A stretch of 63,992 nucleotides of DNA, filler included, from Basidioascus undulatus (Eukaryota), in assembly GCA_000826855.1 (NCBI GenBank). It is 6 parts of 6 records of this genome, joined end to end, with 100 filler letters (N's around TTAATTAATTAA, not from the genome) between each part and the next. Parts side by side here need not be neighbours in the genome. Positions count along the whole stretch, not along the records: positions 32,607 to 43,390 come from JTLS01001088.1; 5 more parts are not named here. One strand, written 5' to 3'. The translations under genes were made by a program, and so were the position numbers. Shown here one piece after another: positions 10,795 to 54,360 of the stretch; the stretch's first letter is position 1; every line of letters begins with the position of its first letter. The notes under the pieces were generated by a model. That model saw nothing but the letters and a program-made list of their open reading frames with translations. It made no database searches and was not told the DNA's origin.

Positions 10795-10894
10795 NNNNNN
10801 NNNNNNNNNNNNNNNNNNNNNNNNNNNNNNNNNNNNNNTTAATTAATTAANNNNNNNNNNNNNNNNNNNNNNNNNNNNNNNNNNNNNNNNNNNN
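10795..10894. other. Artificial contig linker N44-TTAATTAATTAA-N44
   Basis: 100-bp N spacer with a six-frame stop palindrome; identical at five positions in the window. Confidence 0.98.
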
Positions 10895-21619: not shown

Positions 21620-21719
21620 NNNNNNNNNNNNNNNNNNNNNNNNNNNNNNNNNNNNNNNNNNNNTTAATTAATTAANNNNNNNNNNNNNNNNNNNNNNNNN
21701 NNNNNNNNNNNNNNNNNNN
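21620..21719. other. Artificial contig linker
   Basis: N44-TTAATTAATTAA-N44. Confidence 0.98.
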
Positions 21720-32506: not shown

Positions 32507-32606
32507 NNNNNNNNNNNNNNNNNNNNNNNNNNNNNNNNNNNNNNNNNNNNTTAATTAATTAANNNNNNNNNNNNNNNNNNNNNNNNNNNNNNNNNNNNNN
32601 NNNNNN
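32507..32606. other. Artificial contig linker
   Basis: N44-TTAATTAATTAA-N44. Confidence 0.98.
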
Positions 32607-32923
32607 AGCATGCAGCGCTGCGGTGAGGATCCCGGTCGACGGCCGAGGCAAGGCAGCATACGGGAATGAAACGGCATCGTGGCTCGTACTGAAAGTGTAC
32701 TCTTTCTAACAAAAGGCCGGGGCATGAAAGAAACATTAACACCGCCGCCCCACTGTCGCACATGGTGGCCACACGCAAGAACCAGCGGCTGGGACCACAT
32801 TGTTGGGACGAAAAAAATTGAATTAATTAAGGGATATATCATAGCAGAATTTATCGTCAAGATCATGAAGTCAAAGTCATAATGTCATAGTCGTCGATGC
32901 GCGAGCGAGCCCGAAAGGCCTAC

Positions 32924-35900
32924 TCAGAGATAGACTGTAAACAGCAAAGATCAGCCTTCCGAACTGTAGTTTTCAACACCCGAGGTCTTACTGTCAGCCG
33001 TGATGGGGTTCTACAAAGTGGGATGAAGCGTTTAACATCAGCATGGTGGAGGGGAATTCCAGGGGCATGCCGACTCACCACTTCCAGGCCGCCTTCGATC
33101 AGGTCGACGTCTTCGAGGTAATGAAGCGGCATCTCGCAGAGAGTGCCCTGAAGGAGGGAGTGTAGCTCCGATCAGCATCTTCGAGAGGAATGATCTGATT
33201 GTCTCGCTCTGGGCTTACGCGAACTTGAGCGAGTTGCTCCTTGATGTAGCGCAGGTCAAGGCTGGGGTCGACGTGCCCAACTAGAGCGCTCGTGCGGTAG
33301 TTCTAAGAGAAAAGAGAAAGACTTCAGGAACTTTGAAATGATCGGTTTTAGAAGACGTGCTGACCTTGTAGTCTTCCCAGTTGCGGACTAAGTCCGTCGG
33401 CTGAACGTGGAACACGTCCTCAAAGATCTTGGTGTTCTTGCGGGCCGTAGATCGGTAGAGCTCCAAGAACGAGTCGGAGAGCGGGTCCTGTAACCCAAAG
33501 ATCAGGGCTGAACACGGAGAGAGCGTGGGGGTAAAGGGTGCCGTTTTGCTCACCTCAACAAGCTTGTCCTCCTCAGAGCCAAAGTCGTACGCGTTCGGGT
33601 TCGGATAAGCGCGCATGTTCTCGTCGACCCGCTCATCGTAATTGCAAGGCTGAGGCGGAATGAGGCTGCGAGAGCAGCAGATGAGTACATGCGGCAGCAA
33701 ATTGAAAGTATCATGCGCACCCGAGGTGGAAGCGGGTGAGCTGACGACGGAATGTCGTGGCAAAGCGGCCCGCCAGAAACTGCGACAATCAGAAGACGTG
33801 AGCAACCTGATTTCAGAATCTGCGAAGAGCTATCGCACCCGTTGACCATCCATCTTAGACTCGACGAGGTCCCTGTCCTCGAAGACGAGCCTGGAAGAAA
33901 CAAGATGTTAGCTGGAGACTGCAATGCCCCGACGTCGAATAAAGTGGCCTACGCAGTCTCGCTGTCACGGTCGCCGTTCATACTCCTGTCGTTGACTGAG
34001 CGGATCATCCCTATGTCAGCCAAGTTCCTTTCTGAGGAAGCAAACATCGCGTACTGTTCGCAGAGCCGATGAGGACACGGCGATCGTCGACAATCAGGAT
34101 CTTGGAGTGAACGTAGCACTTGGAAATGAAAACTGGTCAGCCTCGTTAGGGAAAAGCTTCAAGTTACAGACCCACCTGCTCTGTGCTGCAGATTGACGCC
34201 TATGCGTTAGCCGCTTGGATTGACATGAATGTACAGGGCTTCGGGTGCCTTACACGAAACTGGCAAATCGCGAATAAGGTGAGCACGCCGCACGGCAACG
34301 AAGCTTACAAGACCTACTTGTTCTTCTCGTCTTCCTCGGAGCCGAGCCACTGCTCGTCCAGAAGGCTCGTTGAATCGCGAAGCGCGTGCCCGGCGACGCT
34401 GTCGCTGACCTCCTGGTCGTCACGCGGCGCCGCAGATATAAACCGGTTGACGACGTCGCGAGCCTCCTCGACCGTCGCCGGCATCTGCACCGCCTTCTTC
34501 TGGGGCTTGGCGTTCGGGTCGACGCTGGCCGCCATCTGCTGCGGGTCGATCGAAGTCTCCCCGACGGGCTGTTGGATGAAGACCGCGCGATCCTTCGGGC
34601 CTTCGCCCTCTCCGAGCCAGACGCGAGCTTGCTGTATTGAGGCATGATAGTCAGAAACAGAAAACGAAGTGCTTGCGTGGGGTCTGCTCTTACAGCGACC
34701 TGGGCTTGGTGGAACGACACCCCGCTCTTCTCCTCCATCTCGCGGATGAGCTTGCGGTCGTAGTTGATACGGTCGTAACTGCACATGAATTGTGCCGGTC
34801 AGCGCTAAAGTGTAAGTCCCGAAATCGCGCAAGGGCATTACCTGTGCAGGTTGTAGAAGCTGTACCACAAGACGGCATTCAGATGCCGTCTCGAGAGACG
34901 CTTGCACAAGGTGAAACGCACCGAATATACTCGTCCGGGTTCACACCAGCCTTGCGAATTACTTCCATAATGGACTTGCCCTTGCGGCAGATGCTGGCGT
35001 ATTCTGGGTTTATGCTTTCACGTCAGTACTGACACTATTATGGGAGTGCGTGTCGACATACGAGCGTGCATGATGGCCCTGACGTGCGGATGAGGTTAGC
35101 TTATTGTTGTCGAGGCGGAAGCAGGGAAGCTCACTTGGTACCTGCAGCTCCTTGGATGTCGCCTGTTCGGAAGAGCGTCAGAAAAAAAGCACACAGAAAA
35201 TGATATCGCTGCGAAACGGACCAGCGAATCCTGGAACCGCGGGGATGACAATGGTCACCTGCATCGGAAGTACAGCGCTTCAGAGGGACCATGATGCCGT
35301 GCGACGACATGGGAGAAGACTGCGTACCAGGAACTTCTGCTTGTCTTTGGCAGACTGCAGGATACGCTCGACTATGGCAGCGCCAATGCGGTTGTCGACG
35401 GGGCGGCCATCGCCAACGGCCGTCTGGATGCTGCATCAGAAACCGACTGGAAGACAAGGCTAACTGCTTGGGAAGACGCACGATGAAGAACTGCGGAACT
35501 TTCGTAGTCAGCTTATCCGGGAAATATTAATCACGACAGCTGCGTTGCCTACCTGGTTCCTGAACGAATCGTCGAGCGGTAAGTAATATATCTTTCCGAA
35601 GACGCAGGACAGTACCTACTCGATCCAGATGGAATGCGATGCCTCGCGGATCCTGTAGGCGAGGAGGCTCGTGAGGGATACGTTGTTGGAACGAAGACCA
35701 CAGTCCACGTACATCTCGATGTACGCATTCTGGATCGACTTTTCCGTCAGGATGCCGTTGCTCCAGTCGCCCGCGGAGCGCAGAACCTGAACGTTGACGG
35801 TGCCACGGTGACTGCGTGAGGTTCAACGGACAGGTGAGCCAGTGGTGAACGGGAATTTTGATGCACAGCACGCACGGTTCCTGCGGGTCTTTGAAGTCCT

Positions 35901-38129
35901 CCCTCGAGTTCTCGTGGTCGCCGGACCAAGGGTGCTTGAACGAGCGGCCGATCTGTATCGGAAGAGGACATTCAACTTCCACATCGATCAAATCCAACAT
36001 TGTTGGTCGGACCGCACCTCCTTCCAGCGCCCGAGGTGGGGGTGTCTGTTGACGGGCTCGTCCTGTGAGGCCGGCGAGGGTTTAGCCTCCGCGCGGGGTG
36101 TTCGAGAGCGCAGATGCTGACCTCGGGCAAGTTGTGCGGAAGCGCGAGATGGTGGTACTTCTTCTCGAGATAGTACTTCTCTGCTAGGGCAAAGTTCGTC
36201 TTCAGAGCGAGTTAAACGGAATGAGACCCTGAAAGACCGGCTCACCGTCGTAGATGTGGTTCCAGCGCTCAACGAAAAGCTGCGTCAAGTCGATCACGGA
36301 GGGGCTGGAGAACGAGGATGATTATGAGCACGCGGAGAGGTGGGAGCTGAATGCGTCGGATGAGGAAGAGGAGGAGATTGAGGAGGGCCTACCCCTTGAT
36401 AACACTGTGAATGTCGTGCCACGGGCCCCTGGGAGCTTGAAGGATCGAGATCTCGTTTCCGACATATTCGGAGACCTTGGTGAAGTCGAGAATGCGAGCG
36501 TCTTAATGGCGCGGCGCTGCTTAGCTCAAGCTCGCGAAAAAATATCCCGCATGAGCGAAAACGTACTGTCTGTTAAGCAGGGCAAAGTAAGCACCGTGTT
36601 GCGCGGTGACGACCACATGCGGATAGAAGGACTTACTGTAGTCCTGCCCCGGGAACAGCGCGCGGTCGAAGTTGGTCGGGTGCGCGTCGGCAAGGGGGTG
36701 GTTGTGCGTGTCCCACCTTCCGAAGCAGAGATCGATCCCCCCGACGAACGCGATGCGGTTGTCGATGATCTGTTATCCTTGATTAGGCAACCAGACACTC
36801 TCGGTGACCTCAGCGGAGTCAACTTACGCAGACTTTGCTGTGGTGCGAGTAGTACAGCGTGATGTCGCCTGGTGGATGAATGTAAGTATCTGCGCAGCTC
36901 CATCGGGTCGACAGGAACACACCGCCGATGTGGTCCGGCTGTATGTGGTGGAGCAGTCAGCGCGACGGGAAATTTAAGTAAGGAGGGCGAGTAAAGAACG
37001 TACGTGACGCATAACCAGGATGTTCTCGTGCAGGCTGAGAGTTGAAGATCAGATAGATCTCGTGATTGATGTTCGATGGCAACACAGGACGTACTTCATG
37101 AGCGAGTGCTTGGTGTGCGCGCTGGACATCGTCATGGTCTGCGTCACCTCCTTGTATACGACCACGTACTAAAAGAACCCAATCAGTTCGCTCTCTTCAA
37201 GTCGCAGCCGCCTTCTGAACCCAAGCGAGACCCTGACGTACAATGCGAACACCCTGCTCGGCCTTGCGCTTCAACACCCTGTCCAGGCGCCACTCCTCGT
37301 TCTTTGTGGGAGGCCGGCGGAGGTAGAGCTCGGGCGACACTGGGAATGGTAGATCGAGACATACGACACAGCAAAGGTTAGCAAGGCTGTGAAGAAACGG
37401 AGTGCAGGACCCAGCACGGACGCCACCAGTCGAGAATCTGTAAGTACGCTCGCACTTAGTCTCAGAGTCCCCTTGTTTAATAAAAACAAGATGCGGCTCA
37501 CGTAGATGGACTCCTGTGCATTCTCGAGCGCCCTGTACTCAATGTCAGCGCTTGCCGCTCATGTCAAGGCTAGCGTAGACTGCCACGCTTACTCCGAGAG
37601 AGCGTAGAAGTAGTCATGACCGTCGATAAACCTTCGATATGATCCAGTCGTTAGTGCACAGTCATAGACGGGCTTGCAGCAGAGGACGAAAGGAACGTAC
37701 CACCTCGCGCGGTTTCCCTCGCGCGGCGGAGCGAAGCTCTTGAAACGATGAGACTCGGCGATCTCGGTCCTGTAACACGGTAAACGAATTCAGCGTGCCC
37801 TTCTGGCAGATGAGATATTCCACCTGGACGCACCTGATTCTGTCCGCCTCCTGCAAAGCCCCTCCAATGAAACCTCAGCACAGCCCCCTCGCATATGATT
37901 CCCTCCTCAACAGGCCCAATCTGACCTTCTCGTGCTCCTCGTCGTGACGATCTGCAGCCAAACATGTTCAGTGCGTTCGAATGCGAAGGATGCACGACTT
38001 CGACCTACGATTCGGGTTCACCACGAACCGGATGGTCCTTCCCGTCTGGTGCAGGCGGTTGTTCGCCTCGACGCTAAGGTCCTTGAATTGGTCCCCGATG
38101 TCCTTGAGCGAGTCAAATAACTTCGACAT
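32924..38129 (-). CDS. Phospholipase D (fungal short form without PX/PH domains), many introns
   Basis: NPNR-RHDEEHEK, FKSFAPPR, IDGHDYFYAL, ELYLRRPPA, VVVYKEVTQTM, first HKD region (IDNRIAFVGGIDLCFGRWDT), IVRLPKQ, second HKD YVHSKILIVDDRRVLIGSAN and GDRDS. Ends NPITADIYL*. Confidence 0.92.
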
Positions 38130-38669
38130 TCTCGATGCTTTGGTCAGTAGCGTGGTTGGTATTCGCGATGAAGATGAAGGTGGACGTTGTCGCGGCGGAC
38201 GTGCACCTTCGCCTCCCGAACTCCCGAACGCGATATCGGGGCGGTGCTGCGGCGCCCCCTTGATTTCCACGTGAATCAGTTTCGGAAAATGCGGCGATTT
38301 CACTCAAACGTCGAACAAGGCTGCAAGCTTGGGAAGTTGTCATCTCTTGTTAACATTGTCTACCATATTTTAAAGCCGAGCCGGTGTATTGTGAGGGATC
38401 CTCCAGGTGTTCGTGCTTACAGTACACTCGAAGTCGCGGAGACACTGCGGTGCCACAGTCCGCTTTCCCGACACTCCATCGCGTTGGCCTGCACCAGCTT
38501 CATTGCACCATGCCAACATACAAAATATTGTAAGTGAATACAAGTACCCACCTCGGACACTCACTCAAATACAGACCACAACAAAAGTTAACGCCAATAG
38601 CACAGCGAACACCTTTTTGCGTCCCCAACTTCAAGCCGCCTACCCTCCTCTCATTTCTGCCGGGACCCT

Positions 38670-39329
38670 TTATATTAGCATGTAGGATACTGTTAGATCT
38701 ATAACCATGGTCTGAAGACAACGTCCTGGACACCTCTGCCGGTATATGCTGCGTAGCTCGCAGCCGCCTCCTTGAGGCGACAATCACAAACGCCCGGACC
38801 TCATACCTTCCAAGATCACATACGGACAATACAAATCGGTACAGTTTTTTGAAAGTACTCACGATTGACCATCGCATGCAGCTCGTCCCCGTCCACCAGC
38901 TTGAGGCCCTCCGGCGTGTCCCCACCGCGCACGCGCGCCCCCTCGAACAAGAACCTACGCTCCAGAAGACATTCAAATCGACAACACTGCCTAGACTTCT
39001 TCATTACCTAAACTGGCTCGGGATCATCCTGCGTATACCCGCGTACGTTGTGAACAGCCTGCTCATCCGCGTGTTGGGCTTGAGGCCCAGCCGAGTGACA
39101 TTCTGTGTCCGTCCCCACTGTCAAACAAAAACCGAAATTGAAAGAAAAGGGACCGCGTTTGCTCATGCCCCTTCCTGCGAAACGATCTGCTCATCCCAGC
39201 CGAGGTCAGCTATCCCTCGCACTGACAGTGCGCACGACGCACATGCAGCGTCATCCTCGCGACTGCCGGTCGCCTTGAGAGAGATGGGAGTGTCGCAAGA
39301 AAAGTTTTGGGCGCTTGCTGGGTACTCAT
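38670..39329 (-). CDS. Divergent SUMO-like protein A (Rad60-SLD/SUMO fold); C-terminal splicing uncertain
   Basis: Spliced reading MSTQQAPK..RMTLH|IVSQEG..|NVTRLGLKPNTRMSRLFTTYAGIRRMIPSQFR|FLFEGARVRGGDTPEGLKLVDGDELHAMVN, with a possible downstream (R)GG at 38763-38768. Needs a homopolymer correction near 39168. Confidence 0.72.
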
Positions 39330-39793
39330 AGTCAGGGGTGGTCGTGATAGTGGGAGGACAGAATAAAGAAGGCAGAAACGTGCGATCGGGATCAGGAGAT
39401 GGGTTGCAGCGTGCGTCTGCAGCGTGGTTCCACGACAAGTACAAATCCGAGCGTTCTTAGATCTCCACTGCCATGTCGGTTTGAGTTCGAGAGTTTTGAA
39501 ATAGATCTTGGTCGAGAACTGCTGTTGCTTAGGAGGACGCCGTACAACAAGGGTCGCTTTCGCGTTCGTTTCACATGAGCGAGTATGCCGCTCTGCCCTG
39601 AAACAGTGGAATTACCCCAACCCTGGCAAAGCTTCAAGAGCATGGTATATCTCTTCAATATATCGATTTTCAGTGCAACACGGCTCAATCTCAGCCCCAG
39701 AGGTCAGAATCACAGCGCCGCCCTTGCGCAGCCGCGGTCCAGCTCCGACCCCAACTTCCTACGCTACTTCTCAAGAACCACTTCCCAACCAGA

Positions 39794-40448
39794 TTACCAT
39801 GCTCCAATCTTTAAAGTTCCGCAATTAATCAGGGGTCGGTTTCTCCTCCGAACAAGCCAGCGCACTACTCACGCTGGACCACCGCCTGCGTACACCACGC
39901 CGCGCGGCCCCCTCGCGACGCTCTGTCAGCCGGCACCCGCTGCAAGATGTCCAGCAAAAGAGGTCTTACGTAGATAGTGTCGTCCTCCACCAGCTCCAGG
40001 CCCCCGCCGTGTCCTCGTCTCGGACGCGCTCGCCGTCGTAGAGTAGCCTTTGCCCCGGCGCCAGGCCACAGAGTCAGTAACGGTACCCGCGCCACCATTT
40101 GTAGAGGTTGGCGCGCACCGGACGGTCCCCGGGGTCGAGTCCTAGACGCTTGGCATAGGTCTTCTTGAGTTTGCCATCTGCCCGTGGGAAATGGAGGGAG
40201 AACGGGCAGGGTATAGTTGGAAGGCTCACCTTGCTCGTCTGCTTCAGCTTGAACGCGACCTCGCCCCCATCCTGTGCCCCTCTTCTTAGGGAATGGGAAC
40301 ATGAGAAAGTGAAGGTGCTTGACAAACCTGGGCGACTGTCTGCGCCCCCATTGCAAGCACGGGTCAGTGACCACCTCGCGGCACCCCTCCCCTCAGAACG
40401 CAGTGAGCGCACCCGGATCGAGACGTGATGCTCGCTTTCGTCGGCCAT
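39794..40448 (-). CDS. Divergent SUMO-like protein B; end approximate
   Basis: Spliced reading MADESEHHVSIR|TVAQ|DGGEVAFKLKQTSK|MGKLKKTYAKRLGLDPGTVR|LLYDGERVRDEDTAGGLELVEDDTIY|AVVQ. Requires three 1-nt corrections in G/C runs (about 40175, 40130, 40000). Confidence 0.78.
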
Positions 40449-40652
40449 GGCTCAGTAGGAGTCAGTATATGGGGATAAGGAAGATGTTTTGAGGGAGGTG
40501 AAGTGCCGCTGGAAGACGATGATGAGGGCAAGAGGCTGAGGAGGGCTCAGCAGCGACAGAGCGGATGTCCGCAGGGGATCGCCGCGTTCGCTCGCTTCCG
40601 TGCGCAGGTAACACGCGTCGGGAACGCGACGAACGAGCATTGAACAGTACCC

Positions 40653-40659
40653 TTTTATA
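40653..40659 (-). promoter_or_regulatory. Probable TATA box of SUMO-like gene B
   Basis: GTATAAAAGG on the minus strand, about 205 bp upstream of the ATG at 40448 and followed by a CT-rich leader. Confidence 0.45.
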
Positions 40660-41540
40660 CCTCCGTTTTTCTCCAAGATTAGTCCGCCAAGGACAAAGGG
40701 TGTCGCACGGAACGGCATTTGGAGCGCTCACTTCCTGGGGTCATCTTCCTCTCATAGGCTGTCTACCCTCTACGAAATAATTCATACGGAGTAGATGCTT
40801 CGAGGTGTATGAGAAAAATGGAAGCAGCACTTCCTTCAGCAGGTGCGTGAATCGACCGGTCTCCCCTCATGGCTCCGCCCCGCCCTGAGCGGCGGTATTT
40901 TCCTTCGGATCGCCCTGGAGACTAGGAACAATTTTTGAACTTCCTTCTGAAAAGAGCCCTTTATATTGTTTGAAACATTCTGGCCGGCAAGGGAGTCTCA
41001 CAGGCTGCCCATCGACATCCGCAGTTCTGCAGATTGCCATGTAACACCGGTGAGGAACGCCCGTACAGTTGATCTACTCATGGGAGGACGACGTTCATCG
41101 GCCTCGGTCTGTCTTGAGCGCGGTCATCATGGAAAGTTTTTAGTTCTTTTTTTTGATAATTTTCGGATTCTTTCATGATCTGAGTCATGATTGTACGTGT
41201 CTGCTAATGCCACGAGAAACTGAGGTGTTATTGGCCACCGTGACCTTTTGTGCAAACCCCTTCCTTCAAAGTTCATAATCCGAGACTGAAGGTCTCTTTC
41301 AGGCCGCAGAGAAAAATAAAAGGCTTTGTCGCTCATAGCAAATCCACTTCGTACAGTCTGCCCTATAGCAGTACCGCAAGGACTTGAAGGAATCTGGCTG
41401 TCAATAACCCCGGGCCGGCGACACGCCAGTACATTTGCTTCCGAACGACGTCGCGTCTTGCTCTGGTCCTCTCGCCGTCTCCTTCTCGCTCTCGGTCTCC
41501 GCCTTCCCGTTCTTGTACCTCTTGCCTCGCATCGCCAGAC

Positions 41541-42843
41541 ATGTCTCAGGAAGAGTCCGCGTCAACCTCCAAGATCAACTTGGAGGTGCACTACGACGAG
41601 GCGGGGCGGACCGAGTCGCTTTCGTTCTCCGTCAAGCCGACCACCAAGGTACGCGTCCAGGCTCGTCCCCTTCTTGCGATGTATGCTGAGCTCGGACCCT
41701 GGACGTGCAGTTCTCGAAGGTGATTATAATTGATGGTAGATTATGCTTTCTGAGCGCTTATGTGTGGGTCTGGATAGATCTTTGCCGCGTTTTGTGCGCA
41801 GACGGGCAAGTCGCTCAGTGCGTGCACTCTCCTCCGGCCCCCTCCCGTGCGAGCGCTCTGCTCCGGCTGAGCGACGCATGCCACTGCAGACATGCTCAAA
41901 TTCACGTACGACGGCAAGCGAGTGAACGGTGAGGATACGCCCAAAATGCTCGAGATGGTGGGCCGACGCTTCGCCCTCCTCCCCTCCGCGGCGACGATGG
42001 AGCTCATGGGTCGCTCGTCGTGGGTTTCAAAGGAGGACGGCGACTCGCTCGATGCGCACATGGAGCAGGTGCGCTTCTCCCCCACTTCTAGTGCACCGGG
42101 CGTAGCGGACCGTCTGTTGATCGGTTGGAAGAGCGCTTCAGATTGGTGGTGCTGCGGGGGAGGACGAGGACGCGCCTGCGGCGAAGGCGGAGGGAAAAAA
42201 TTCGTGTGCCCATCACCCTGTTCCCCCTTCTCCAACATATTCCCTTACCCTTCTTGACATGCAGACTGAATATTGAGTACCAAGAAGGGGGTCAAATGAA
42301 AGGCACGTCGCTCCCACCTCTCCAACCCCACCACCAGCTCACGCCGGTTCTTTATAGACCTCACTTTTCAGGTCAAGCCGGCAACGAGGTCCGCCATCCT
42401 GCTCACCTCCTTTCCAGCGCCGTACCATCTCACCTTGCTCTTCCCAACGCAGTCGAAAAGGTCTTCAACGCATTCGCAAAAACAGTCGGAATGAACGCCG
42501 GTTCGTCCCGCGTCCCGCGTCCTATTCCCTATCCCCACCCGCTCCTCCGAATCTCACTTCCCCCTTCGACCCGCAGGCATGATCCGCTTCCTCTTTGACG
42601 GCAAGCGAGTACAGAAGCAAGATACGCCTAAGATGGTTTGTCCTCCGCTGCCTGACACTTTCTCAAGGACGCGGATGCGCTGACATGATATATATCCTGG
42701 CGCAGTACGAGATGGAGGACCGTTGGATATTGTCGAGGGTGAGTGTGCTCAACGTTGTGTTTCCTTCAGAGTCCTGCTTACGCGAGGATGGGAGCAGCGC
42801 ACGTGGAGCAGGTCGGCGCTGCGCAGCGGCAGTGACATGGTGA
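41541..42843 (+). CDS. Tandem di-SUMO-like protein (two SUMO-like domains separated by QIGG and an acidic linker)
   Basis: Domain 1: KINLEVHYDEAGRTESLSFSVKPTTK|FSK|IFAAFCAQTGKSL|DMLKFTYDGKRVNGEDTPKMLEM|EDGDSLDAHMEQ|IGG. Linker: AAGEDEDAPAAKAEG. Domain 2: LNIEYQEGGQMK|DLTFQVKPAT..EKVFNAFAKTVGMNA|GMIRFLFDGKRVQKQDTPKM|YEMED..DIVE|AHVEQVG(A/G). Confidence 0.85.
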
Positions 42844-43212
42844 CTGGTCGGAGGTGGATGTGCGTGGGTTCTCACTTCAGCTACACATTCTGGAACTTTT
42901 GGTTGAGTGGGACGGTCAATGCCTCGCTCAGGCGTGGTGGTTTTTGGGGCACGGGTGGCGGGTGACGGACGTGGGTCGGGAGCGAGCAGTGGACGGCGGG
43001 GGGTTTTCGAATTCGAGGACAGGATTCGCTTTTAACTTCATCATTTCGGGGGCTCCGCTGTGTCTCTTTACACTGGTCATGCCAACATGATCGCCTTTCG
43101 TGCGCAGCTCTCGGGATGACCCGCTAGTTTGCGAGCGAGCGGCGCTACTATCGCTCGTCCTTCTGACCATTTTTTTATCCGCAACTGCTATAACGACCCT
43201 CTGAAACGACTT

Positions 43213-43390
43213 ATGAAGCATTCTATCTCTATTCTCGCTGCAGTTGCAGCGCTCCCCGCGGCGCTCGCAGCACCCCTGACCAATTCGAAGCGCCAGCTGG
43301 GGAGCGTTACCGGGGCGTGAACATCGGTGGATGGCTCCTGATGGAGTAAGTCTTACGTGTAGTCGCTTGAGAACTGAATGCAGCGTGCTT
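43213..43390 (+). CDS. 5' end of a probable secreted protein (truncated by the contig end; frame broken at 43318)
   Basis: Signal peptide MKHSISILAAVAALPAALA, then AP and a Kex2-like KR site (NSKRQLG). Donor GTAAGT near 43346. Confidence 0.5.
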
Positions 43391-43490
43391 NNNNNNNNNN
43401 NNNNNNNNNNNNNNNNNNNNNNNNNNNNNNNNNNTTAATTAATTAANNNNNNNNNNNNNNNNNNNNNNNNNNNNNNNNNNNNNNNNNNNN
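43391..43490. other. Artificial contig linker
   Basis: N44-TTAATTAATTAA-N44. Confidence 0.98.
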
Positions 43491-48662: not shown

Positions 48663-51600
48663 TCACCACCTCCTCCCACCAGGGTACCCCTCGTTCCCGC
48701 CCTGCTGCTGCGCGCCGGGGTACCCGCCACCGCCCGGGTTGATGAAGCCCGGCCCGCCAGTGGGGCCGGGCGGCGGGGCGTAGTAGCCTCCTTGGTGCTG
48801 CGGCGGGGGAGGACCGCCGTACAGCGCTACAATAGCAGACTTTTCAGTACCCGGCACCGGTATCGAACCGCAATAAGGTGAAGAACGTACGCTGGTTGTA
48901 GTATCCGCCCTGAGGAGGCGGCGGACCAGGCGGAGGCGGTGCGCCGTACGTCCCATAGTTCTGGACGCCGGACCAGTCGCCTCCGGGCTGAAGGAGCAGG
49001 CAAAGTCAGCGATGTGGCATCGCAGAGCTACAGGCGAGAGCATGGGATGCGCGGCGTACCTGAGGTTGGTACTGCGCCGCATACTGGCCCGGAGGCGGCG
49101 GCGGCTGAGCGTTGTACGCTTCATAGCTGTTCGTCCGAGTATGGTTATTAGCCAAACCGCCGAGCTTGGTGGGCTGAGCGAGAACGACGACGCACCCTCC
49201 TTGCGGCTGGTAGCGCCCCGGTTTCGGGAACCCAGGCGTCGCCGTCGCGCCACCGCTGTACTTGAGGCTTTCGCGCTCCTCCTTCTCGCGCCGCTTGCGC
49301 TCCTTCTTCTCCTGCTTGCGGCGCCGCTTGTCGTAATCTCCGTCGTCGTCGGACGAGTCGTCCGAGTCCGAGTCGCGGCGCCCGCCGTGCTTCTTCTGGC
49401 CGTGGCCGTGCCCATGCTCGTGTCCGTACGCACCAGGCACAGCGGGCGAGGGGAAGCCCGGCATGGCGGGAGCGGGCAAACCGCCGTGCGAGCCGCCGTA
49501 GGGCGCCGCGACTGGCGGGCTGGGCGCGGGGAACGCGGCCGGCTGACCGCTATACCGCTCCTGCCCCGCAAACCCGCCGTGCGGAGGCTGCTGTAGCGTC
49601 GGGTGGGTCGGCTCAGCCTCGCGCCTGTAACCCCCGCCGCCGCCACCACCGCCGGGTCCGCCGAGGCCGAGCGACGACATCCCCCCCTGGATCTTCTCGA
49701 GCCCGCTCTGGACGCCGCCGAGCCCTGGCACCTTGCTGATCGTGCCCGCCCCGATCATGCTCTGCAGGCCGCCCGTGGACCACTTCGAGTCTGCGCCCTG
49801 CTGGCCTTCGATCGACGGGTCGTTCACGACGTGCTGCTGGCCGTGCACCTTGTTCGCCAAGCACCGGCACGACTCCTTGTCGAGCTTGCCGATGACCGTA
49901 TTGATGTTGTGGCCCTGGGCTAGCAAGCGATGCGGCATGTCGATCAGCGTCAAACACAGTAAGACGAGAGGACAGAATTTCTTCTCGCTTACCTTGGACC
50001 CACTACCGAGCCAAAGCGTCCCTCATAAATAGTCAACGACCAGAGCCCCTCTATGCCCTCGAAAAATTCCCCTCGCACCTTCTGCATGAACTGCATCATC
50101 TCGTTCTCTGTTGCATGCAAACCATCGTCAGCACTTCTCGCCCACCAAACACACAAGTGTTACAACGCACGGATCTGCGAGTGGCCGCTCGCAAAGTACG
50201 GGTGGTGAATGCACTCGAGGATGGAGTCGATCGCATGGTGCGGGTTCGAGGAGTCGCCCCATGCGTCGACGATGATCTTTACCGAGTGGATGAGGATGAT
50301 GCGGGCTGGTCGACGGGCGAAGGGAGGCACGTCAGAAGGGACATTACAGCGTGATGGAAAAGTGGAATGAGCGTACCGACGTTGCTGTTCAAACGAGAAA
50401 GCCTTAGACTGTCAGTGCGAACGCTCAGGCGGAACGTAACGGCGGGGTGCGTACCCGGCGGGGTTGTTCAAGCTGTGAATTGGCAAGATGCTCAGCGGTA
50501 TTCTTTATGAAAATACGGGAGAACGCCTCACACCAAGTCAAAGTGCTGCGTTTTCACTCGTCGTAGTCAGCCATATGCACGGACTCAGTCTCGCTCGCAC
50601 GGCTACTCACGTCCTTCGAAAGCCTGCATCCCCTACCAAAATTAGCTAAGCCGTCAAAACGCGTGAGCAAATGGACTACTCAAATGCTGTGAGTCGGGTC
50701 ACTAGCCTATTCAACGCGCAATCTGAGTCAGCCCCGCATCTTGCACAATCGGGCGGCGATGCGCCTACGCACGTTCGGGTTGTTGAACACCTCAAGCTGG
50801 TCTTGGCGGTCCTGAGCGAGATCAATGGTGCATCAGCGTCTATTCAAAAGACGCAAATGAGATAAGAGCATCGATACGTACGAGAACTTCCTGCGAGCCC
50901 ATGCCGACGGATTGCTGCGCGCCCTTGATGATGGGCTGATGGCGCAAGGCTGTCAGCAACGCTTCTCCACGAAATGAAGAGGATGTAATAGTACCTTGAG
51001 GAAGGGCTGTCCGCCATGGGCCCCAAAAATCAGCTTCAGCTCTTTAACGCACCCCACCGCAGCGCACGTACGTCCAGCGTGGTGAAGACGAACACTACCA
51101 CCCGCAGCCCTGTCAGCTCTCCATATTCTTCCGCCTCCGTCCCGACATCCCTCCAAAACAACGCACCAGCGATCGAGTTCGAGATCTTATCCACGAGCGC
51201 GCTCAGCCCGGGAATCCGATCAATGGTATTCTCGATAGTCTTCATCACGCGATCGCGGAACGCGAGGACTTTCCAGAGCGTCGCGTGGAGTTCCTGCGGG
51301 CTCATCGTCTCGGGGTTGCGCGCGCCCGGCGCGCCGGCGCGCATCGCGTTGATGTCGTCCATGTCGCGGCTGAGCGAGTTCCCCCCGCCGGAGGAGCCGC
51401 CGGACATGCCCTCGAGCTGGAAGAGCAGATCGCGCAGGATGTCGGCCGGCGAGCTGGACGAGCCGCCCAGGCCGCGGGAGCCCGTCTGCGTGGACGCAGC
51501 GCGAGAGGAGTCCAGCTGCTTCGTCAGGTCTGTGACGGACGCGGAGGACAGGTGGTCCGTCGCTTCGCCCCTGTGGAGTACCACGCCGACTCAGCAAACC

Positions 51601-53246
51601 ACATTCGAGGTGATAGAGCAATCACGCGCACATGAGGGAAGCGAAGCTGCGTTGAAAATGAGGAGTCAGCAGTCGCTTCCAGCCAGTCCTGCCGCATAAA
51701 AACAACTCACAAGTCGACACCGCCAAACGAGCCCGTCACGATGGGCGGGACCGACTCGCCGCTAGGCGCGCGAACGCGCACATTGTCGCCGACATGGCAG
51801 AACACGTTCCGGAAGCCGAGCTTGACCAGCGCGATCTCGCACCAGTTCTGTTTGTCCACATCAACATCAGCGCCACCTATCCTGGACTGCCTAAGATTGT
51901 AGAGCAGCATACGCTGTGCGCCGGGAAGTCCTCGAGAGTGTGCATCTGTCATGAAGCGTGTCAGCCCTGCCACTTCAGCAACCCCACAAAGCAGCGCGAG
52001 GAAGACGCACAGCCGTCCCCAAAAGCCTGTACGCCTCGTACTCGTCCTTCTCTGCGTTCGGCCCGCCCGAGCGCGAGCGTCTGCCGTGCTCGATGCACGC
52101 GAGGAGCACGCGGCGGACGTGTGCGGTCGACGTGTCCCAGCCGCCTTGCTCTGTTCGCCCCATCTCTCTCTCGCTCAGCAAACGTGGGGGCAGTCTGAAA
52201 GAAACACGCGCGAAGACCGACCGTTCGCAATGTAGTTCTTCATCCCCGTCCGGTGATCGATCTCGAGCTCGCGCGGGTCGACGGGCGGGCGGAGCTTAGG
52301 GTGGTACTTGCGCGGGTCCTCGCCTTCGCCGTAGCCCTGCAGCCCCGTCCACACATTTTCAGTCCACTCCTTCCATACAGCCCAAAAGCTGCAAAAGCAT
52401 ACCTTTGGGTTGTCCTGCATTCCCCGAATGTATGTTTCAGCGCCCCTCGTCCACAGTCTCGCCCTCCAGAGTCCCTTACGATGTGCTCGACCTGTCCCGC
52501 ATTCCAAGCATGAGCAAGACCTCCTCGCTCCCCACCTAAATCTCACGTACCGGAAGATACGTCCCTAGACGCTCCTCAGTAACCTCGAACTCTGCATCAA
52601 GCCCAGCCCCAACCTCAGCCACCCGCCTCCTCGGTCGCCCTCAACCGACAAGTCGCGCACCGGCCGTAGCGTATCCGTGCGCCATAAATCCGAGCGCCAT
52701 GATGAGATTCAAGATAGTCATTCTGTCCGTCTTCTTCAGGGCAGCTATGTCCACCGCTTGACTGTAGTCGCGCAGCCAGTTGCCGAAGTATACGCGCTGC
52801 GAGGGAGCGAGCGGTACAGCATGAGGGGCAACAGCCGAGGTAGGGGTCGGGGAGACGCACCTTCACGTCCAGCCCAGAGAACTTTGTCCCCTTGCTAAGT
52901 CCCAGCAGTCCACCCCCAACCTTCTTATACAGGTCCACTAGGGCGTCGGTAAGGTCGCCTGGCATCCCACCCCTATGGTCAGCCTCCCGTTCCATCTCCC
53001 CATCGCCCGCCTCCCGACCAGCGCTCACCGTGCCGGAACGCCACGCCCTCCACATGCGAATGCGAAGGCCTAACCTCCCCAAAAACACCCCGGTAGGCAG
53101 CAAGTCAGCTCCGGAGACCAACACAGGTGGTTGTGCGTTCAGAAGACGCACACGTTCCCCGCGCCGAACGCGGATGCCGAGGGCGTGAGGACGACGAGGA
53201 TAACGATTACGACGAGAAGAAACAGGAGCAGTCTGTGATTGCCCAT
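48663..53246 (-). CDS. Het-C domain protein (HET-C2/TinC-like) with Gly/Pro/Tyr-rich C-terminal tail
   Basis: Signal peptide then AFGAGN, AFRHGD, RVYFGNWLRDYSQAVD, EHIDNPK, HPKLRPPVDPRELEIDHRTGMKNYIAN, EYEAYRLLG, EDFPAH, NWCEIAL, PPIVTGSFGGVD, PTHS and HFDL. Confidence 0.93.
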
Positions 53247-54260: not shown

Positions 54261-54360
54261 NNNNNNNNNNNNNNNNNNNNNNNNNNNNNNNNNNNNNNNN
54301 NNNNTTAATTAATTAANNNNNNNNNNNNNNNNNNNNNNNNNNNNNNNNNNNNNNNNNNNN
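54261..54360. other. Artificial contig linker
   Basis: N44-TTAATTAATTAA-N44. Confidence 0.98.

What the first reader, a model, noticed from the sequence alone, without database searches (positions are those of the whole stretch)
41541..42843. Di-SUMO-like polyprotein with an internal di-glycine processing site
Seen: domain 1 ends AHMEQ|IGG, followed by an acidic linker (AAGEDEDAPAAKAEG) and a second, clearly diverged SUMO-like domain ending AHVEQVG(A/G). Known: polyubiquitin precursors are cut after GG; SUMO is normally monomeric, and Rad60/Esc2 tandem SLDs are non-conjugated domains of large proteins. Inference: this could be a precursor cleaved by a Ulp1-type protease into two different modifiers, or a genetically encoded SUMO-chain mimic that binds STUbL/SIM proteins.
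Basis: partly seen in the sequence, partly recalled or inferred. Interest (0 to 1): 0.78.

Follow-up and report, generated by a model that had tools for sequence, protein, structure and literature searches.

The report
SUMO gene with decayed second copy
This fungal gene makes one apparently working SUMO protein tag followed by the broken remains of a second copy, so it is a decayed double-SUMO gene of a kind already known from grasses rather than a new two-tag protein.

Summary
The two SUMO-like domains, the internal di-glycine and the acidic linker are real. Spliced contigs of one public run support all 12 introns, and one contig runs from the end of domain 1 through domain 2. Domain 2, however, is not in frame. 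That contig is exactly as long as the genomic exon pieces (489 nt) and shows no indel, so the mRNA leaves the SUMO frame at 42388/42453 and stops at 42596-42598 (153 aa). Domain 2 has a second break at 42721-42725 and ends Gly-Ala. It scores 78 bits against a SUMO profile when read with X at the breaks, and 3 bits as spliced. Best reading: an ordinary SUMO paralogue precursor whose long, disposable tail is a decayed second SUMO domain. It lies in a small cluster with two more SUMO-like genes, one expressed and also broken. A separate single-domain SUMO gene and a Rad60-like gene lie elsewhere in the genome. Multi-SUMO proteins with internal Gly-Gly are known (maize DSUL, grass concatemers) and were common among database hits. 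No two-domain relative from this fungal group was found.

The parts
41479..43050 (+). Gene A, transcribed span; exons 41479-41648, 41711-41719, 41778-41817, 41890-41957, 42033-42068, 42142-42203, 42265-42302, 42358-42388, 42453-42500, 42577-42635, 42706-42738, 42798-42859, 42932-43050
   Evidence: 11 joints in X3 contigs covering 12 introns, one joint holding the 9-nt micro-exon; intron ends checked; contig ends are not transcript ends
41541..42598 (+). Reading frame of the spliced form: 153 aa = short N-terminus, SUMO domain 1, Gly-Gly, 63-residue tail; stop at 42596-42598
41571..42150 (+). SUMO domain 1, intact, ends Ile-Gly-Gly (Gly-Gly at 42145-42150, next residue Ala)
   Evidence: 88.1 bits vs SUMO profile; best PDB matches of the exon 4-5 stretch are SUMO chains
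41711..41719 (+). 9-nt micro-exon within domain 1
   Evidence: letters between joint 41648-41776 in table 5c
42151..42195 (+). Acidic linker (4 Asp/Glu in the 12 residues after Gly-Gly)
   Evidence: mean 4.1 after internal Gly-Gly in multi-SUMO hits
42196..42835 (+). SUMO domain 2, relic: first and last thirds in the frame of domain 1, middle in another frame; ends Val-Gly-Ala, old stop 42833-42835
   Evidence: 78.4 bits with X at breaks, 2.7 bits as spliced, middle piece alone 46.6 bits; frames
42303..42357 (+). GC-AG intron
   Evidence: joint 42300-42356 with 2 letters fitting either side; ends
42387..42454 (+). Break 1: the 64-nt intron 42389-42452 joins exons 8 and 9 out of the SUMO frame
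42721..42725 (+). Break 2: frame offset inside exon 11, opposite in sign to break 1
   Evidence: no indel listed for X3
42815..42820 (+). Gly-Ala where a modifier needs Gly-Gly
   Evidence: no other letter in X1, X2 or X3
39692..40595 (-). Gene B: head-to-head SUMO-like neighbour, spliced in X3, broken (ATG 40448, stop 39794-39796; spliced product 72 aa, lacks the helix, ends Gly-Ala-Trp)
   Evidence: record 7 = 468 nt = exon model; 69.9 bits with X, 24.5 as spliced
38680..39329 (-). Gene C: third SUMO-like gene, modelled only; open frame with a Gly-Gly two residues early and a tail; low end approximate
   Evidence: Rad60-SLD E 0.0032; core 44.5 bits; model; splicing not confirmed

Best explanation
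Gene A is a SUMO paralogue that was once a head-to-tail di-SUMO. Shown: it is spliced as modelled, and the spliced frame gives domain 1 with Gly-Gly plus a 63-residue tail that breaks out of the domain 2 frame and stops. Inferred: a Ulp1-type protease cuts after Gly90 as with any SUMO precursor; domain 1 is activated and conjugated; the tail is discarded. Because the cut removes everything behind Gly-Gly, loss of domain 2 costs domain 1 nothing, so domain 2 could decay while its introns are still spliced. Inferred origin: tandem duplication and fusion within the SUMO subfamily that includes the single-domain gene L015, in a locus where SUMO-like copies are born and die (genes B, C).
For: Frameshift present in the spliced contig. 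Domain 1 has no break and the highest profile score of the five domains tested. G+C at third codon positions: domain 2 53 of 81, domain 1 74 of 90 (Fisher p 0.014); domain 1 + L015 + B + C 273 of 326 (p 0.0005), fitting weaker constraint on domain 2. Domains 1, 2 and L015 are 43-49% identical, share a phase-1 intron position and group in the tree with one chytrid domain (SH-aLRT 91, below the 95 mark; quick tree of 61 rows). The linker resembles those of intact multi-SUMO proteins, where 107 of 123 internal domains end in Gly-Gly. C48 peptidases: 4 matches on 2 contigs. Grass concatemers show the same fusion and loss of Gly-Gly (PMC6680281 passages). Two long genes read by eye showed no frameshift (L044; phospholipase D, middle of the output cut), so the assembly does not look error-ridden.
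Against: No protein evidence: cleavage and conjugation are untested. The early stop has three introns behind it (about 130 nt to the last junction), which may trigger decay of the mRNA; contigs cannot give its level. L015 could supply all SUMO, leaving domain 1 dispensable. No relative was found, so neither selection on domain 1 nor an intact ancestor is shown. The Uba2 ubiquitin-like domain gave only a weak match (E 0.06, under the cut-off). The C48 hits were not sorted into Ulp1, Ulp2 or DEN1. The breaks in domain 2 and in gene B cancel in frame, which plain decay explains only by chance or by survival of open frames. RNA rests on one sample.
Confidence: 0.7

Rival explanations
1. The whole gene is a dying paralogue: domain 1 is intact only because it has not been hit yet, and the real modifier is the single-domain gene L015.
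For: L015 is intact by model and ends Ile-Gly-Gly plus two residues. Neighbour B is spliced yet broken, so transcription here does not prove function. Early stop upstream of three introns.
Against: All three lesions lie in domain 2 and none in domain 1, of similar length; domain 1 keeps high third-position G+C and the best profile score.
Confidence: 0.17
2. An intact di-SUMO protein is made after all, through rare splicing or ribosomal frameshifting, and acts as a two-modifier precursor or a SUMO-chain mimic.
For: The two breaks cancel, so the last third of domain 2 returns to the frame of domain 1; gene B's breaks cancel as well. Upstream acceptors at 42417 and 42769 would keep the frame open. 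Contigs drop rare forms.
Against: Of 114 splice combinations that keep the frame to the domain 2 end, 39 have both introns of 45 nt or more; the 13 of these with GT donors were printed, and all delete part of the strand-helix turn and lack the last acidic strand (26 with a GC donor not inspected). With the donors seen in RNA the first intron must be 29 nt, against 55-88 nt for the 18 introns seen in RNA. None appears. The end is Gly-Ala in every case. A stop lies between the breaks.
Confidence: 0.05
3. The breaks are sequencing or assembly errors and the gene is an intact di-SUMO.
For: The breaks are 1-2 nt offsets near short repeats; the window does differ from other contigs by one base at 43309, in a neighbouring gene; X1 and X2 may be the source of the window.
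Against: Two DNA runs of different year and depth give the same 10,616-nt contig with 0 differences, and the spliced contigs agree in length and letters.
Confidence: 0.03
4. It is a Rad60/Esc2 (RENi) type stable two-domain protein.
For: Two SUMO-like domains in tandem; weak Rad60-SLD Pfam match (E 0.07), a model that also covers SUMO itself.
Against: RENi proteins have a long polar N-terminal region and lack Gly-Gly (PMC549199 passages); this gene has 10 residues before domain 1 and a Gly-Gly. A gene with the RENi layout lies on another contig (L006).
Confidence: 0.02

Closest known systems
SUMO/Smt3 precursor
   Same: One SUMO domain ending in Gly-Gly followed by a tail; processing by removal of the tail is the standard first step (PMC7691676 and PMC2946365, passages).
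   Different: The tail is 63 residues and derives from a second SUMO domain; a second single-domain SUMO gene (L015, 49% identical) exists in the genome.
Maize DSUL and grass GSUL2 concatemers
   Same: Head-to-tail SUMO-like fusions in a multi-gene locus with duplication, fusion and loss of internal or terminal Gly-Gly (PMC6680281 passages; Srilunchang 2010 seen only as cited there).
   Different: Fungal; no grass sequence was compared, so independent origin is assumed, not tested; here domain 2 is frameshifted.
Unannotated di- and poly-SUMO proteins of diatoms and fungi (P0091 Thalassiosira, P0094 Stephanodiscus, P0012 Rhizophlyctis, P0014 Helotiales)
   Same: SUMO domains joined by Gly-Gly plus acidic linker.
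   Different: Their frames are open as predicted; identity to domain 1 is only about 45-58%; no orthology shown; some may be gene-calling artefacts.
RENi family (Rad60, Esc2, NIP45)
   Same: Two SUMO-like domains in one gene.
   Different: No long polar N-terminus, Gly-Gly present, both domains close to true SUMO (for the definition).
Polyubiquitin precursor (from my own knowledge)
   Same: Units joined after Gly-Gly and freed by a protease.
   Different: SUMO, not ubiquitin; units 48% identical, spaced by a linker, second unit not translated.

Membership tests
SUMO modifier precursor (domain 1) | SUMO-type ubiquitin-like domain by sequence | tested here: met
   88.1 bits vs best shuffle 6.3; 44 of the 46 PDB matches to the exon 4-5 stretch are named SUMO/SMT3
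SUMO modifier precursor (domain 1) | C-terminal Gly-Gly in frame, acidic patch just before it | tested here: met
   joint 42065-42139; residues 88-90
SUMO modifier precursor (domain 1) | Transcribed and spliced | tested here: met
   spliced contigs in X3, one sample
SUMO modifier precursor (domain 1) | SUMO pathway enzymes in the genome | tested here: inconclusive
   C48 peptidases over cut-off; Uba2 domain E 0.06; Ubc9 and E3 not searched
SUMO modifier precursor (domain 1) | Cleaved by Ulp1, activated by E1, conjugated via Ubc9 | not testable with these tools
   needs bench assay
SUMO modifier precursor (domain 1) | Beta-grasp fold | not tested
   no structure prediction run; the spliced protein was not available as a reference
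Di-SUMO / poly-SUMO polyprotein (DSUL-like) | Two SUMO domains in one transcription unit | tested here: met
   record 10 bridges exon 5 to the 3' end
Di-SUMO / poly-SUMO polyprotein (DSUL-like) | Both domains in one open frame | tested here: not met
   frameshift and stop at 42596-42598
Di-SUMO / poly-SUMO polyprotein (DSUL-like) | Terminal Gly-Gly on domain 2 (needed for a second modifier; lost in some grass concatemers) | tested here: not met
   Gly-Ala at 42815-42820
RENi (Rad60-Esc2-NIP45) | Long polar low-complexity N-terminal region | tested here: not met
   10 residues before domain 1; definition
RENi (Rad60-Esc2-NIP45) | No Gly-Gly on the SUMO-like domains | tested here: not met
   domain 1 ends Gly-Gly

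The most novel reading that the evidence does not exclude
The locus is a SUMO birth-and-death hotspot in a basidiomycete-like yeast where gene B, which keeps conventional SUMO motifs, is the lineage's original SUMO and has died. Sumoylation has then passed to a divergent subfamily (L015 and domain 1). Relatives would still carry the intact di-SUMO, a single precursor that yields two different modifiers. For: three short-motif and protein searches of the genome found no other conventional SUMO gene; B keeps high third-position G+C, as if recently lost. Against: B has a long branch and at most 41% identity in the tree; intron-split genes are easily missed; the assembly has 2992 contigs; no relative was seen.
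Probability: 0.15. Interest if true: 0.6.

Novelty: new member of a known kind. Interest (0 to 1): 0.27.

Why it matters
As it stands, little: a SUMO paralogue with a long throw-away tail. It is a clean snapshot of how a two-unit modifier gene falls back to one unit, because the protease cut shields the first domain from damage in the second. It extends the duplication-fusion-decay pattern described for the grass DSUL locus to a fungus. The side result may be more useful: multi-SUMO proteins with internal Gly-Gly are frequent among protist and fungal database entries, and my six literature searches on SUMO listed no paper devoted to them outside grasses; that library lacks most subscription journals. 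If relatives keep domain 2 intact, they would offer a fungal test of whether one precursor yields two modifiers.

Tried and rejected
Relatives in the same fungal group: none found. Protein search with residues 8-68 of the exon 4-5 frame: 1 candidate, 0 hits. phmmer of the 59-aa stretch: 14 hits, all multi-SUMO or repeat proteins, none close. Search with P0004: 59 hits of 290 candidates. Profile of P0004 plus nine exon pieces: 287 hits of 1276 candidates, only the best 120 seen. Metagenome motif scans: 0 loci; 79 loci, of which 1 is a SUMO gene and it has no intron like gene A. These queries were short or intron-interrupted, so absence is not shown. ESM Atlas: no usable hit, then unnamed clusters only. 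Run search: no RNA holder listed; X3 proved spliced only when laid. Gene C has no cover in X3, which is no evidence of silence. Pfam on 7 single-frame pieces: 2 weak Rad60-SLD matches, none over cut-off. No second copy of genes A, B or C by DNA search of the genome. Of 13 + 7 pattern matches, 4 lie in this locus; 13 of the other 16 were translated and none was SUMO; 3 were not inspected. First idea that the ~10.7-kb pieces were raw long reads with errors: rejected. Hidden micro-exon restoring the frame: rejected by the length sum and the 64-nt intron size, although a 3-nt micro-exon occurs in the neighbouring phospholipase D gene. The careful tree did not finish; the quick tree resolves little (6 of 58 branches starred). 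PMC5006051 (passages) did not settle whether decay depends on downstream introns in basidiomycetes. Earlier scan findings: nothing. No fold or complex prediction was run. Supplements were not read; alignments there (PMC7691676 file S1) may bear on which SUMO type is conventional in basidiomycetes.

Full report
Setting. The window is a string of ~10.7-kb contigs joined by N linkers; the finding lies on contig C100 of a 32.1-Mb, 2992-contig assembly. Short introns, a Het-C gene and other eukaryotic families (11 of 145 frames had a Pfam match) mark a fungus. 'Basidiomycete-like yeast' is my judgement from gene structure, not a call result.

Gene structure. From the DNA alone I modelled 12 exons from ATG 41541. 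Domain 1 read through to Ile-Gly-Gly and the acidic linker; domain 2 needed two frame changes. Three public runs hold the stretch. Laid on 38400-43390, X1 and X2 each give a 10,616-nt contig with 0 differences over 38400-43273; they may be the source. X3, of the same sample as X2, gives contigs that skip introns with GT..AG ends, so it is RNA in effect although labelled 'DNA?'. Its 11 joints in this gene support my 11 introns (the eighth with the donor one base earlier), including a 9-nt micro-exon and a GC-AG intron, and add one in the 3' untranslated part. Overlapping contigs of like depth (25.1, 24.9, 25.5) span the gene, and one of them, record 10, runs from exon 5 to 43050.

Domain 2 is broken. 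Record 10 is 489 nt; the nine genomic pieces defined by its joints sum to 489. No other letter or indel is listed for X3 in the gene. The spliced frame leaves the SUMO frame at 42388/42453 and stops at 42596-42598, giving 153 aa. A second, opposite offset at 42721-42725 brings the last third back to the first frame, behind the stop. The end reads Val-Gly-Ala. Against a profile of 16 outside SUMO proteins, domain 1 scores 88.1 bits, domain 2 with X at the breaks 78.4, its off-frame middle alone 46.6, and domain 2 as spliced 2.7; shuffles reach 6.3 and 8.5. I enumerated other splice choices: 114 keep a frame to the end of domain 2, none was seen in RNA, the 13 printed with normal-length GT introns damage the domain, and using the real donors needs a 29-nt intron where the 18 RNA-seen introns are 55-88 nt. 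Limits: one RNA sample, contigs only, and only one piece of record 10 printed. Errors of the assembly seem unlikely: dihydrolipoamide dehydrogenase and the visible parts of phospholipase D read without breaks by eye.

How it most likely works. Shown: splicing, the 153-aa frame, Gly-Gly at residues 89-90 followed by Ala. Established: SUMO precursors are trimmed to the Gly-Gly before activation (PMC7691676, PMC2946365; passages). From my own knowledge: Ulp1 cuts long linear SUMO fusions unless proline follows. Inferred: domain 1 is released and conjugated, the tail is degraded, and this is why domain 2 was free to decay. Third-position G+C is lower in domain 2 (53 of 81) than in domain 1 (74 of 90; p 0.014). 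C48 peptidases are present; the Uba2 domain match was weak. Against function: three introns follow the early stop, and another intact-looking SUMO gene exists.

The family in this genome. A Rad60-SLD search gave 18 matches, 7 or more of them ubiquitin or ubiquitin-like. L015 (contig C499) models as a single-domain SUMO ending Gly-Gly plus two residues, 49% identical to domain 1 and 43% to domain 2; domains 1 and 2 are 48% identical. The three share a phase-1 intron and group in a quick tree with one chytrid domain (SH-aLRT 91; weak). L006 has the Rad60/Esc2 layout. Beside gene A lie two more SUMO-like genes on the minus strand. Gene B is spliced (record 7, 468 nt, equal to my model), skips the helix through a downstream acceptor, shifts frame in a piece printed with 0 gaps, and ends Gly-Ala-Trp at what looks like its old stop. 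Gene C is modelled only. That the breaks in both A and B cancel in frame is unexplained; chance and survival of open frames are the simple accounts.

Comparison with what is known. It works like a SUMO precursor, and domain 1 meets the sequence tests for one. It is not a di-SUMO polyprotein in this strain (frame and terminal Gly-Gly not met) and not RENi (definition from PMC549199, passages). The ancestral layout is known: the grass GSUL2/DSUL locus holds head-to-tail concatemers, some without internal or terminal Gly-Gly (PMC6680281, passages). Among 155 proteins fetched, 92 have two or more SUMO domains; 107 of 123 internal and 56 of 92 last domains end in Gly-Gly. That set is biased, since most came from a di-SUMO query, and some entries (P0001) look like gene-calling artefacts. 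Named examples are two diatoms, a chytrid and an ascomycete. Two SUMO genes in some basidiomycetes, one without Gly-Gly, are on record (PMC7691676, passages). PMC4083429 was seen as a listing only. No two-domain relative from this fungal group turned up, but those searches were weak for an intron-rich gene.

Verdict. Observation partly confirmed; interpretation right for the first cut and probably for the ancestor, wrong for the present product. New member of a known kind, interest 0.27. The boldest open reading, a dead conventional SUMO replaced by this subfamily with an intact di-SUMO in relatives, I put at 0.15.

Noticed in passing
window 39692-40595 (-): Gene B: spliced SUMO-like transcript with two micro-exons; several inferred small indels and an acceptor shift leave a 72-aa open frame ending at the apparent old stop; TATA-like box at 40659; head-to-head with gene A.
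   Followed up: partly
window 38680-39329 (-): Gene C: third SUMO-like gene, open frame by model with a GC donor and a Gly-Gly two residues early; not confirmed by RNA.
   Followed up: partly
window 43213-43390 (+): Start of a secreted glucanase-like gene (label from my own knowledge of the motif); the window lacks one base behind 43309 and differs at two places from an X1 contig and an X3 contig, which read in frame: a paralogue or a contig-end consensus problem.
   Followed up: partly
window 33000-38130 (-): Phospholipase D-like gene (named from motifs, by eye) with many short exons, including an apparent 3-nt micro-exon near 36570.
   Followed up: partly
L015:973-1667 (G000:C499): Single-domain SUMO gene, 7 exons, intact by model; candidate main SUMO of this genome.
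   Followed up: partly
L006 (G000:C2612): Rad60/Esc2-like gene: long polar N-terminus and two SUMO-like domains without Gly-Gly.
   Followed up: partly
L012 (C2517), L017 (C32), L018 (C1712), L014 (C2414): Further SUMO-like domains inside larger proteins; L012 and L017 share a similar upstream region; L017 has Gly-Gly followed by more coding sequence.
   Followed up: no
L005, L011, L013: Degenerate ubiquitin-like copies, two with a stop inside the match.
   Followed up: no
P0002-P0014, P0024-P0056, P0082-P0123: Many unannotated di- to hepta-SUMO proteins with internal Gly-Gly and acidic linkers in diatoms, other protists, a chytrid and ascomycetes; may deserve a survey of their own.
   Followed up: partly
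window 51039-52564 (-): Het-C heterokaryon incompatibility gene, three exons matched.
   Followed up: no
window 10795-10894, 21620-21719, 32507-32606, 43391-43490, 54261-54360: Artificial N linkers with stops in all frames: the window joins six separate contigs, so neighbourhood beyond 32607-43390 means nothing here.
   Followed up: yes
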